From the NCBI RefSeq assembly GCF_963853765.1, contig NC_088856.1, positions 14,384,001 to 14,448,000 of the forward strand: 64,000 nucleotides of DNA. The letters run 5' to 3'. The stretch comes from Magallana gigas. Its lineage: Eukaryota. Below are positions 3,001 to 6,000 of the stretch, in pieces. Numbering within the stretch: the first letter of the stretch is position 1; the number at the start of each line of letters is the position of its first letter. A program made the position numbers.

Positions 3001-6000
3001 TGATACGACAGAGGAAATGCGGACGATTCATCGTAACCATCTTGTCTCTTTTAAAATAAATAAAACAGAAGCACTATGTTTAAATAATAATGATAATAAT
3101 AATAATAATAATAATAAACCTGTAATGTCCTTGTCCTCAGACATATAACACCAAGGAGAATCAAACTTCATTATCTGTTGTATGAGAGTCCTACCTTTTT
3201 TGTCCTTTTCCTCTGATATATAACATCAGGGAGGATCAAACTTCATTATCTGTTGTATGAGAGTCCTACCTGTTATGTCCTTGACCTATGACATATAACA
3301 CCAAGGAGAATCAAACTTCATTATCTGTTGTATGAGAGTCTTACATGTAATGTCCTTGTCCTCAGACATATAACACCAAGGAGAATTATACTTCATTATC
3401 TGTTGTATGAGAGTCCTACCTTTTATGTCCTTGTCCTCTGACATATAACACCAAGGAGGATCATACTTCATTATCTGTTGTATGGCATCATCATCATACA
3501 GATCAGCTCTGTAATCAAACACAAGAAAATACACTGCTTTATAATGAAGATTCCAGATATCAACAGGTAATACTGTGGCATCATCACTGTTAATGATGGT
3601 AGAATAAGTGTTAATTTCATGAATACCTCTTACTTTTAAATTTACATTTCCAAAGAAACTACATAAAGGTGTTAATTAATTTTATTTTCATTACTTGGAT
3701 GATTAAACAATGTACCTTAAAAAAATGTTACTCTAAGGCCTATGAACTCATGTTTTGGGGTGGGCTCTTTTTTTTTTTTTTAACAAACCATTCACAATGA
3801 ACCCAACAAGAAAAAAAAAACACAGCTAAACCAAATTAATGACATCAAAAATCAATAAATACACAATTGATTTGAAGGGGAATATATCGTTAATTCAAAA
3901 TAAAACTAAAGATTACAACTGTAGGTCACAAAGTAGACAAAATCTAAAGATTACAACAGTAGGTCACAAGGGAGACAAAACACAATAAACAGCAAAGGAG
4001 ACATAAGTTTTGTCCAATATTTAATCAAAAATCTTAGAGTTTGGTGTTGGTGATAATTTCCTTAAGATTTTCTTACATGTAATGGTCTGGATCAAACTTT
4101 TCAGTTTCTGCCTGTTCCCTCATCGTCCGTCTGTCTGCTGGTGGACAGTGTTCAGGGTTCGGTAAATCCACTATCTCATAGACCTCATCCTATATAACAC
4201 CACATGTATCAGATGATAGGACTGTTATAAAACTGTCTCAGAAATAATGCACTTCATTTAGTGTACAGGGTAGTTCATTAGTGTATGAATTGCAAACTTT
4301 AATTGTTTCAGTGCTGAGATACATGTAGTTTACTTCTTCACTTTTGATTCAACAGACTTAAGATTTAACGAGGCCGGGTCTAATTTGTTCTGCCCTAGAA
4401 TTGAATGAAATTTTTTACATGAATTTCTACTGATATTATTAATATTTTAAGATTAAATAATAAGACATTTACCACACCGTTTGTTTAAAGGGTCATCTCA
4501 AAGTTTGTTAATTTTTAACATAGGACCCTATGGGATTTTGCTTGAAATGTATCAATTTTGCACATTTTTTACATTTTTTTAAACTTCTGCCCTAGGGATT
4601 TCGTTTTCTGATCTACATATTAATGTTATTGCTAAAAGGCATCAAAAGGTCAAATAAAAAAAACTTTTTACCTTCTGGTTTGTTCCAGGGGTCTTATCAA
4701 AGTTGTTTTTTGTATGCCCAATTTCCAACTTTGTCAGATAATGGCTATTTTTTATTTGACAAAGATGGAAATGGTGATCTTTATAGTATTATCAAAACAT
4801 TCAGATATAGTTAAGTAATAAATAAATATATAACATCACATATTAAGGGCCATTAATATAAAATACATGACATGGTTACTGTTTCGAAATATATGAATTA
4901 ATCTATATTTAGGCGGGTTAAGAAAGCGTGACAGAGGGCTAGGCTTTCTGAACCCTCTTCACGTTTTCGACCCGAGCCCAAATATAGCTTATACTTCGAG
5001 ATATTTATGTTTATTCCACAATATAATATCAATTTTACGCATCAAATGAGCTATTTTCAACAATTTTCACGGAATATCTGCAGTTGAAACTATCACGCCA
5101 TGGCGTCAACAATGCAAAAAGATGATGTCACGACACAAATGAAACGCTGCGCGAAAGTGTGCGTACTCGTTCTGTACTCGGCCTCGTTAAAACAGTTTCA
5201 AATACTTGCTTTATTTTGTAGGTAAATTGAAACACAACAATACAACATGTGTGTTGTTATGTACAGTAAAATATAATTAATAAGCAAATTGATTTAAAAT
5301 TACCCTCACATTAATTTACATAAGAATTGCAGACCTGTAATCTTTTGAATATTCCCGACTTCTGATTGGCAAACCCATATGTCTGGCCGTCCAATAGTAA
5401 TTCTTTCTCCTTATATGGTTGTTGTTCCACATGCCAATCAAACTCTTCCTCCTGCTTTTCTTCTTCTAAATGAGCCTCCTCCTCTACTTTCTCATCTTCA
5501 TCTGATTAAAAAGCAATACCAGAATAAGAATATTCATTATATCAAAATATGGGTCTGAACTTATTTTTCACATTATAGCTGAGGTAGTACTGTATTAGAT
5601 GCTAATTTTGTGCCTAATTCTACAAGTATCAATACTGTAGATTCCTAATTCAACGCGAGGAATTAATATCCAAGTAAAATCGCAAGAAGCACCCTTCGCG
5701 GAATTTAAAATCTCATCATTATTTTGTCAGAGTTTAGAACAAAAAGAAATTAGGTAAAGAGTTCTGCGTTCACAATTCTATTTTCTTGTGATTTGATATA
5801 AAACAGCGGGATCGCAGTACTCGTGTAATATAAGGAATTCACAGTATTTTAAACTTGTAACAGTCATACTTTTTGTATATAACTATTAATGATTATAAAG
5901 AATACAAAATATTCCATCTTGGAACAACTAAAGGATGAATTTTGTATAATCATGGTTGCTGTAATTGCATTTAACAGTAATCTAACTAATTTTGATAAAT

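What the first reader, a model, noticed from the sequence alone, without database searches (positions are those of the whole stretch)
3121..3508. SHQ1 ends in an in-frame 75-bp array of exon-end copies carrying alternative splice donors and a stop codon
Seen: the 3' part of SHQ1 exon 7 is amplified about 5 times in 25-codon units. Three junctions contain G|GTAGGA donor-like sites (3420, 3270, 3195), the outermost has G|GTTTAT (3120), and the third unit has TAG (3286-3288). Splicing at 3420 avoids the stop. Read-through gives a protein of about 279 aa ending in repeated QQIMKxDxPWCYMSEDKDI. No exons for the C-terminal SHQ1 domain appear in the remaining 3.1 kb, although the other introns of this gene are about 1.1 kb or shorter. 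Known: the SHQ1 CS domain and C-terminal domain both engage dyskerin/Cbf5 during H/ACA RNP and telomerase assembly. Inference: either this is a CS-domain-only truncated paralog or allele, or donor choice in the array switches between full-length and truncated/NMD products of a gene that continues beyond position 1.
Basis: partly seen in the sequence, partly recalled or inferred. Interest (0 to 1): 0.65.

Follow-up and report, generated by a model that had tools for sequence, protein, structure and literature searches.

The report
Tandem copies of an SHQ1 exon end
The end of one SHQ1 exon, together with its splice signal, has been copied five times in a row, most likely as an ordinary repeat that is removed with the intron; only RNA data can show whether it disturbs the gene.

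Summary
A 75-bp tandem array lies at 3118-3484 on the minus strand (4.9 copies, 88% matches). Each unit holds the last 64 nt of SHQ1 exon 7, the GT donor and 11 intron bases. It missed a fifth usable donor (CAT|GTAAGA, GT at 3344-3343) and a second in-frame stop (TGA 3228-3226).

Exons 1-4 match the SHQ1 CS domain one exon at a time. Exon 6 weakly matches the yeast Shq1 SSD. So this is not a CS-only gene.

Variation among the units looks neutral: 3 synonymous, 8 non-synonymous and 2 nonsense columns.

No SHQ1 core exon was detected in 1-3225. None of 56 minus-strand and none of 61 plus-strand reading frames matched.

Best reading (confidence 0.68): a minisatellite straddles the exon 7/intron 7 boundary, copy 1 is the working exon end, copies 2-5 are decaying intron, and the gene continues beyond position 1.

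Two things stay open:
- All five donors are at least as U1-complementary as the weakest real donor of this gene. Work on duplicated 5' splice sites (PMC3413131) would predict use of a downstream copy, which brings in a stop.
- A truncated gene copy is not excluded.

The interest is modest.

The parts
3118..3484 (-). 75-bp tandem array, 4.9 units. Each unit is the last 64 nt of exon 7, the GT donor and 11 intron nt.
3420..3508 (-). SHQ1 exon 7 as defined by the first donor (89 nt, enters in phase 2, leaves in phase 1). Its last 64-65 nt are unit 1 of the array.
   Evidence: Acceptor AG 3510-3509 and frame continuity with exon 6 read. Frame and donor. No database hit for this exon alone. Its likeness to vertebrate SHQ1 is recalled, not tested.
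3418..3419 (-). Donor d1 GT (AAG|GTAGGA). It gives an 89-nt exon with no stop.
   Evidence: 7 of 9 consensus positions; U1 duplex -9.2 kcal/mol
3343..3344 (-). Donor d2 GT (CAT|GTAAGA). It gives a 164-nt exon that adds 25 codons in frame without a stop.
   Evidence: (same 9-mer as the exon 6 donor at 4076; -4.4 kcal/mol)
3268..3269 (-). Donor d3 GT (CAG|GTAGGA). Using it includes the TAG.
   Evidence: -10.7 kcal/mol, strongest of the five
3193..3194 (-). Donor d4 GT (AAG|GTAGGA). Using it includes TAG and TGA.
   Evidence: -9.2 kcal/mol
3118..3119 (-). Donor-like d5 GT (CAG|GTTTAT), the weakest on the intron side.
   Evidence: 6 of 9; -5.6 kcal/mol
3286..3288 (-). In-frame TAG in unit 3
3226..3228 (-).
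3083..3117 (.). (AAT)n microsatellite, 11.7 copies, directly abutting the distal end of the array
7369..7443 (-). SHQ1 exon 1 (starts with ATG), CS domain profile positions 1-23
   Evidence: PF21413, E 0.0014
6675..6742 (-). SHQ1 exon 2, CS profile positions 24-45
   Evidence: E 5.5e-05
6485..6549 (-). SHQ1 exon 3, CS profile positions 47-66
   Evidence: E 0.018
6015..6143 (-). SHQ1 exon 4, CS profile positions 70-93 and then linker
   Evidence: E 4.9e-05
5335..5501 (-). SHQ1 exon 5 (acidic linker and start of the SSD region). No family hit on its own.
   Evidence: no SHQ1 hit. Placed by GT-AG, frame continuity and codon score 23.9.
4077..4189 (-). SHQ1 exon 6, which aligns to residues 45-77 of yeast Shq1 SSD constructs
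   Evidence: 3 of 3 hits are yeast SHQ1 chains 3zv0, 3uah/3uai and 3zuz, E 0.30-0.34: weak
1..3117 (-). Presumed 5' part of intron 7. No recognisable exon on either strand.
   Evidence: 0 of 56 and 0 of 61 frames hit an SHQ1 family; no strand-specific coding signal

Best explanation
The array is a minisatellite made by repeated tandem duplication (slippage or unequal exchange) of a 75-bp piece that straddles the exon 7/intron 7 boundary of an otherwise intact SHQ1 gene.

Unit 1 is the working exon end, and its donor (GT 3419-3418) joins exon 7 to an exon 8 that lies beyond position 1 of the window. Units 2-5 then sit at the 5' end of intron 7, leave the transcript with that intron, and decay neutrally.

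Because each copy keeps 64 nt of exon context and a good donor, some transcripts probably splice from a downstream copy:
- d2 would add 25 residues in frame.
- d3, d4 and d5 would bring in TAG, giving a truncated or NMD-prone product.

I take these as by-products, not as a regulated switch.

Shown: the array, its register, the donors, the stops, the neutral-looking substitution pattern, the intact upstream exons, and the absence of SSD-core exons in 3.1 kb.

Inferred: which donor is used, that the gene continues off the window, and how the array arose.
For: Array and register.

Intact gene upstream:
- Seven exons, with all 6 introns GT-AG and the frame open.
- Exons 1-4 hit PF21413 SHQ1-like_CS colinearly at profile positions 1-23, 24-45, 47-66 and 70-93 (4 of 4 CS exons).
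- Exon 6 hits only yeast Shq1 SSD chains.
- A CpG-rich block at 7801-8200 lies between SHQ1 and a divergent patatin-like gene.

No coding constraint on the downstream copies:
- 13 variable columns in the 63 codon-phased nt: 3 synonymous, 8 non-synonymous, 2 nonsense. The expected synonymous fraction is 0.14.
- Stops in units 3 and 4.
- Changes private to one unit: unit 1 has 0, unit 2 has 3, unit 3 has 2, unit 4 has 5, unit 5 has 0.

Age: units differ by 5-16 of 75 positions. The array is therefore not a fresh event and has been tolerated in a gene that is essential in yeast (PMC10560722, passages read).

Tandem duplications that include part of an exon are common, and they can be neutralised when a splice site is included (PMC2891723, abstract and section 10 read).
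Against: - No exon 8 is seen. Intron 7 would have to exceed 3.4 kb, while the other six introns are 125-1145 bp.
- d3 and d4 are as strong as or stronger than d1 by U1 pairing (-10.7 and -9.2 against -9.2 kcal/mol), with identical context from -64 to +11.
- In HeLa extract and cells, two equally strong 5' splice sites 45 nt or more apart splice almost only from the intron-proximal one (PMC3413131, passages read). That would predict d4 rather than d1, and so a stop.
- A CpG-rich block at 1-500 (14 CpG in 300 bp, o/e 1.6 against a window mean of 0.5) could be the promoter of the next gene, which would leave no room for the rest of SHQ1.
- The zero private changes in unit 1 are not significant. 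By my own arithmetic, (4/5)^10 is about 0.11.
Confidence: 0.68

Rival explanations
1. Truncated SHQ1 copy or pseudogene. The gene ends in or just after the array (stop at TAG 3288-3286). It encodes the CS domain plus the first ~95 residues after it, while a complete SHQ1 lies elsewhere, or the SSD is encoded separately.
For: - 0 of 56 minus-strand frames in 1-3225 hit an SHQ1 family at E<=1, although 4 of 4 CS exons of 21-42 aa were detected singly.
- All other introns are <=1145 bp.
- The CpG-rich block at 1-500 resembles the blocks that lie near the 5' ends of neighbouring genes at 7.8-8.2, 20-21 and 44.2-44.9 kb.
- The reading frame 2-91(-) runs off the window.
Against: - Exons 1-7 are intact with canonical splice sites and a promoter-like CpG block. 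A dead copy would be expected to show damage there too.
- CpG-rich blocks also occur inside SHQ1 introns 4 and 5 (4801-5400 and 5601-5900), so they do not mark promoters specifically.
- The codon score of the 157-264 block is high on both strands and in several frames, which points to composition rather than coding.
- The first AATAAA after the TAG is about 900 nt away, at 2390, and the first ATTAAA is at 2788.
- The SSD is the part that binds Cbf5/dyskerin as an RNA mimic (PMC8594475, passages read), so a copy without it could not replace SHQ1.
Confidence: 0.12
2. Functional donor ladder. Donor choice within the array is used, or is copy-number dependent, to set SHQ1 output by sending part of the transcripts to a stop-containing (NMD or truncated) form, or to make a +25-residue isoform from d2.
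For: - All five donors are no weaker than the weakest of the gene's six other donors (-4.4 to -11.1 kcal/mol). Four of the five match 7 of 9 consensus positions, which only 6.0% of the 399 GT sites on this strand in 10-7440 reach.
- The unit is 25 codons, so d2 stays in frame.
- The intron-proximal preference for duplicated strong sites (PMC3413131) makes downstream use plausible.
- Tandem repeats near splice sites are widely associated with splicing differences in humans (PMC10078293, passages read).
Against: - There is no sign of selection on the downstream units or their donors.
- A unit length divisible by three has a one-in-three chance.
- The RNA fold of the array is no better than shuffles (z -0.51; 30 of 100 shuffles fold at least as well).
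- No conservation data could be obtained.
- This reading is compatible with the best explanation as a side effect and differs from it only in claiming function.
Confidence: 0.12
3. Assembly artefact. The array, or its copy number, was created by mis-assembly of reads or haplotypes.
For: Tandem repeats are prone to copy-number errors in assemblies (general knowledge). The window contains an assembly gap elsewhere (N run 47321-47449).
Against: The five units are all different from one another (59-70 of 75 positions shared, no indels). The shared variants form a mosaic. That is what a real, aged array looks like, not a stutter of one read.
Confidence: 0.04

Closest known systems
Tandem duplication of exon sequence with a splice site, with the extra copy intronised (Lehmann et al. 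2010, PMC2891723; abstract and section 10 read)
   Same: A short tandem duplication takes in coding sequence and a splice signal. The surplus copy can be spliced out, so the coding sequence survives.
   Different: In that case a proto-splice site is duplicated inside an exon and a new intron is born. Here an existing donor is duplicated four more times, no new intron arises, and the copies simply extend the 5' end of an existing intron. The footprint here is still visible (88% matches), whereas those authors found none.
Intragenic minisatellites and tandem repeats associated with splicing (spl-TRs, Hamanaka et al. 2023, PMC10078293; passages read)
   Same: A tandem repeat next to a splice site, with the potential to change splice-site use with copy number.
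   Different: The mechanisms named in the passages I read are a repeat bound by an RNA-binding protein that silences the neighbouring exon, and a change in spacing to the branch sites. Here every unit carries a complete donor plus 64 nt of exon context.
Model pre-mRNAs with duplicated strong 5' splice sites (Hodson et al. 2012, PMC3413131; passages read)
   Same: Identical strong donors 75-225 nt apart compete for one acceptor.
   Different: Those are two-site artificial substrates tested in human extract or cells. This is a natural five-site array in an invertebrate-like gene with a long intron, and its outcome is unknown.
SHQ1 (H/ACA RNP assembly factor; CS domain plus SHQ1-specific domain)
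   Same: CS-domain exons match colinearly, and exon 6 matches the start of the yeast SSD.
   Different: The SSD core is not in the window. My one search for a truncated or alternatively spliced SHQ1 form listed 8 papers, of which I saw only titles and abstract starts; none is about SHQ1 splice forms by title.

Membership tests
SHQ1 | N-terminal CS (p23-like) domain | tested here: met
   Exons 1-4, searched singly, hit PF21413 SHQ1-like_CS at profile positions 1-23, 24-45, 47-66 and 70-93 of 93 (E 0.0014, 5.5e-05, 0.018, 4.9e-05; 19, 23.5, 15.5 and 23.7 bits). Each is below the 27-bit whole-protein cut-off on its own.
SHQ1 | SHQ1-specific domain (SSD) that binds Cbf5/dyskerin | tested here: inconclusive
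   Only its start is seen. Exon 6 aligns to residues 45-77 of yeast SSD chains of 365-369 residues, at E 0.30-0.34. No SHQ1 family hit in 0 of 56 minus-strand and 0 of 61 plus-strand frames of 1-3225. The rest may lie outside the window. I had no positive control for single SSD-core exons.
Minisatellite / VNTR | Head-to-tail array of units of tens of bases, with diverged copies | tested here: met
   Period 75, 4.9 copies, 88% matches, no indels.
Minisatellite / VNTR | Copy number varies between individuals | not testable with these tools
   Only one sequence of the locus is available. No eukaryotic genome or read collection was open.
Alternative 5' splice-site cluster | Several GT sites with donor-like sequence downstream of one acceptor | tested here: met
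   Five sites. Four match 7 of 9 consensus positions and one matches 6 of 9. U1 duplex energies run from -4.4 to -10.7 kcal/mol, within the range of the gene's six other donors. The U1 5' end and the consensus were recalled short motifs.
Alternative 5' splice-site cluster | More than one site is actually used in RNA | not testable with these tools
   No transcript data.
Unproductive-splicing (NMD) dosage switch | The stop-containing isoform and its splice sites are conserved or under selection | tested here: not met
   Within the array the substitutions look neutral, and the donors are no more conserved than the exon-like part: 1 of 11 against 13 of 63 variable columns. Conservation between species could not be tested.

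The most novel reading that the evidence does not exclude
The array is a natural, heritable 'donor ladder'. Because duplicated strong donors tend to be used from the intron-proximal side, a sizeable share of SHQ1 pre-mRNA in carriers would splice from units 3-4 and meet the TAG. The copy number of a 75-bp minisatellite would then set the dose of an essential H/ACA RNP and telomerase assembly factor. Alternatively, it would yield a CS-plus-partial-SSD protein that competes with the full-length form for dyskerin.
Probability: 0.12. Interest if true: 0.55.

Novelty: new member of a known kind. Interest (0 to 1): 0.3.

Why it matters
If the plain reading holds, this is a tidy but ordinary case. 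A repeat swallowed a splice donor, and the gene survives because the first copy still works.

Its value is as a natural test bed. Five donors have identical context from -64 to +11, differ only in distance from the acceptor, and carry built-in stop-codon reporters. That asks directly whether exon definition (nearest donor) or the intron-proximal rule wins in vivo. It is also a caution for gene predictors, which may extend exon 7 through the array and call a truncated SHQ1.

If downstream donors are used heavily, the dosage of an essential H/ACA RNP assembly factor would depend on a repeat that may vary in length.

Tried and rejected
- **Three-frame translation of 1-3120 for Pfam**. I replaced it with stop-to-stop frames of >=20 aa scanned one by one. 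Exons lying in frames shorter than 20 aa would be missed.
- **PDB sequence search.** Exon 5 gave one chance hit (Prp8, E 1.8). Exon 7 gave nothing.
- **Pfam on the 73-aa read-through of exon 7.** Six chance-level hits (E 0.023-0.12), none of them SHQ1.
- **ESM Atlas.** The read-through gave a best score of 0.78 (DUF7104), under the level that counts. Exon 5 gave no usable hit.
- **Rfam at gathering scores and ARAGORN on the whole window.** 0 matches each, so there is no intronic snoRNA or tRNA.
- **Codon-usage log-odds scan of 1-3120**, trained on 1815 codons of neighbouring exons. The best segments (157-264) score on both strands and in several frames, so this is composition and not an exon. 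SHQ1 exons 1 and 2 themselves score near zero, so the method is weak.
- **RNA folding of the array** to see whether downstream donors are hidden: z -0.51.
- **Interspersed-repeat check** of 1-3520 against the rest of the window: nothing.
- **Literature.** Two searches for an exon-end array with repeated donors found only related cases. I opened PMC7730772 and PMC11718197 and they were not relevant, apart from a reference in the first.

As a result exons 5 and 7 have no independent family evidence, and no structure model was made.

Full report
**What is there**

On the minus strand, Tandem Repeats Finder reports a 75-bp array at 3118-3484: 4.9 copies, 88% matches, no indels, score 594. It is the top-scoring tandem repeat of the window. 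Of the 9 rows with score >=100, only three other places have periods of 30 or more (3902-3981, 17793-17924, 30622-31036); the rest are dinucleotide runs. Self-blastn gives shifted matches with E down to 3e-106 and no copy elsewhere in the window. Chance is excluded.

An alignment of the units and a codon-phased read-out show that each unit holds the last 64 nt of an exon, the GT donor and 11 nt of intron (GTAGGACTCTC). Unit 1 is continuous with unique exon sequence upstream. After unit 5 the homology stops two bases into the intron-like part and an (AAT)n microsatellite begins (3083-3117).

**The gene**

Reading the minus strand gives seven exons: 7443-7369, 6742-6675, 6549-6485, 6143-6015, 5501-5335, 4189-4077 and 3508-3420. 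All six introns are GT-AG, with lengths of 626, 125, 341, 513, 1145 and 568 bp. The exons hold 706 nt of open frame.

- Exons 1-4 each hit PF21413 (SHQ1-like CS domain) at colinear profile positions 1-23, 24-45, 47-66 and 70-93 of 93 (E 0.0014 to 4.9e-05).
- Exon 6 hit only yeast Shq1 SSD chains in the PDB (3 of 3 hits; chain residues 45-77 of 365-369; E 0.30-0.34). This is weak but specific.
- Exons 5 and 7 gave no SHQ1 hit alone.

That exon 7 resembles vertebrate SHQ1 just before the SSD core is my recollection, not a tool result.

The neighbours are ordinary animal genes. A divergent patatin-like phospholipase starts about 1.3 kb upstream. There is also a GCV_T aminomethyltransferase exon and an EPL1-PHD-bromodomain gene. 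The window has 34.6% G+C and short introns. I do not take it for human.

- G|GTAGGA at 3420, 3270 and 3195;
- G|GTTTAT at 3120;
- TAG at 3288-3286;
- a read-through product of 279 residues.

- Unit 2 has CAT|GTAAGA (GT 3344-3343), the same 9-mer as this gene's own exon 6 donor. Using it would add 25 codons in frame with no stop.
- Unit 4 has a second in-frame stop, TGA 3228-3226.
- The CS profile ends in exon 4, so the window holds more than a CS domain.

**Are the downstream copies coding?**

Across the five units, 13 of the 63 codon-phased columns vary: 3 synonymous, 8 non-synonymous, 2 nonsense. The expected synonymous fraction is 0.14. That is what neutral decay looks like.

Changes private to one unit number 0, 3, 2, 5 and 0 for units 1-5. 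Unit 1 has none, which fits constraint on the real exon end, but it is not significant (about 0.11 by my arithmetic).

Shared variants form a mosaic: units 2 and 5 share three states, units 1 and 4 share two, and units 3-5 share one. That points to several rounds of duplication or exchange. Units share 59-70 of 75 positions, so the array is aged rather than new, and it is unlikely to be an assembly stutter.

**Where is the rest of SHQ1?**

I scanned every stop-to-stop frame of >=20 aa in 1-3225 singly against Pfam.
- 0 of 56 minus-strand frames matched any SHQ1 family. Five unrelated families were hit by one frame each, at E 0.023-0.23.
- 0 of 61 plus-strand frames matched. Ten unrelated families were hit, at E >= 0.035.

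A codon-usage scan found no strand-specific candidate. I had no positive control for single SSD-core exons, and very short exons would be missed.

By the exon 6 alignment (chain residues 45-77 of 365-369), most of the yeast SSD lies beyond what the window encodes.

Either intron 7 exceeds 3.4 kb and the gene runs off the window, or this copy is truncated.
- For truncation: the other introns are all short, and a CpG-rich block at 1-500 (o/e 1.6 against 0.5 for the window) resembles blocks near the 5' ends of neighbouring genes.
- Against truncation: similar blocks lie inside SHQ1 introns 4 and 5. One of them is bracketed by a 16-nt inverted repeat and looks like an inserted element. Exons 1-7 and their splice sites are undamaged. 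The SSD is the part that binds Cbf5/dyskerin (PMC8594475, passages). SHQ1 is essential in yeast (PMC10560722, passages).

I put continuation at roughly 0.8 and truncation at roughly 0.12.

**How it most likely works**

A 75-bp segment across the donor was duplicated repeatedly, next to a microsatellite. Because each copy brings its own donor, splicing from the first donor removes all later copies with the intron and the mRNA is unchanged. This is the same logic by which partial exon duplications can be neutralised when a splice site is included (PMC2891723, abstract and section 10).

What sequence cannot tell is how cleanly the first donor wins.
- By pairing to the U1 5' end (a recalled motif), the values are d1 -9.2, d2 -4.4, d3 -10.7, d4 -9.2 and d5 -5.6 kcal/mol.
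- The gene's six other donors range from -4.4 to -11.1.
- Only 6.0% of the 399 GT sites on this strand in 10-7440 reach the 7 of 9 consensus matches that d1-d4 have.
- The exons the five donors would define are 89, 164, 239, 314 and 389 nt long.

Exon definition (recalled) would favour d1. [quoted passage not shown] The array RNA has no unusual fold that could hide donors (z -0.51).

The long survival of the array in an essential gene argues that productive splicing is at least sufficient. Some stop-containing by-product is likely.

**Comparison, novelty and verdict**

The closest known things are:
- intronised partial exon duplications;
- tandem repeats associated with splicing (PMC10078293, passages);
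- artificial duplicated-donor substrates.

The locus is a new example of known kinds, not a new kind. My searches for an exon-end array of donors and for truncated SHQ1 forms (listing only) found no description of the same thing.

**What stayed unchecked**

- Any sequence outside the window.
- Other individuals or species.
- Transcripts.
- The joined protein.

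Noticed in passing
window 3083-3117: (AAT)n microsatellite, 11.7 copies, directly abuts the distal end of the 75-bp array. It may have helped slippage or set the array's boundary.
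   Followed up: partly
window 3902-3981: A second small tandem repeat (38 bp, 2.1 copies, 88% matches) lies in SHQ1 intron 6, about 400 bp from the array.
   Followed up: no
window 4364-5191: A 16-nt inverted repeat (4364-4379 / 5176-5191, 94% complementary) brackets about 830 bp of SHQ1 intron 5. That stretch includes a CpG-rich block (4801-5400, up to 18 CpG per 300 bp, o/e 1.53). It looks like an inserted MITE-like element and would explain why intron 5 is the longest.
   Followed up: partly
window 1-500: CpG-rich block (14 CpG in the first 300 bp, o/e 1.6 against a window mean of 0.5). The reading frame 2-91(-) runs off the window. The codon score is high on both strands, so it reflects composition. 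It could be the next gene's promoter or an inserted element, and it bears on whether SHQ1 continues.
   Followed up: partly
window 7263-7335: Two copies, 43 bp apart, of a 30-nt segment built around a palindrome (AGAGACA..TGTCTCT) in SHQ1 intron 1, close to the promoter (family D5).
   Followed up: no
window 7444-8714: SHQ1 and a plus-strand gene with a patatin-like phospholipase domain (long frame 8709-9551, frame with the PF01734 hit 10076-10468, another long frame to 12389) are head to head. About 1.27 kb lies between their start codons, holding a CpG-rich block at 7801-8200. This is probably a shared bidirectional promoter.
   Followed up: partly
window 19412-19855 (-), 40260-43503 (-): Aminomethyltransferase (GCV_T, E 6e-41) exon, and a gene with EPL1, PHD/zf-HC5HC2H and bromodomain exons (BRPF-like). 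Each has a CpG-rich block just upstream (20001-21000 and 44201-44900).
   Followed up: partly
window 30622-31036; 49626-52540: A 154-bp tandem repeat (2.7 copies, score 561) and four long perfect (GA)n/(TC)n runs of 29-39 copies, set among CpG-rich blocks.
   Followed up: no
window 17269-17700 (+): A 143-aa open frame with no Pfam hit. From memory it resembles the C-terminal tail of invertebrate retroelement ORFs. It lies between two of three nearby CpG-rich blocks (16701-17000, 17501-17800, 18201-18500).
   Followed up: no
window 47321-47449: A run of 129 N (assembly gap or masked stretch).
   Followed up: no
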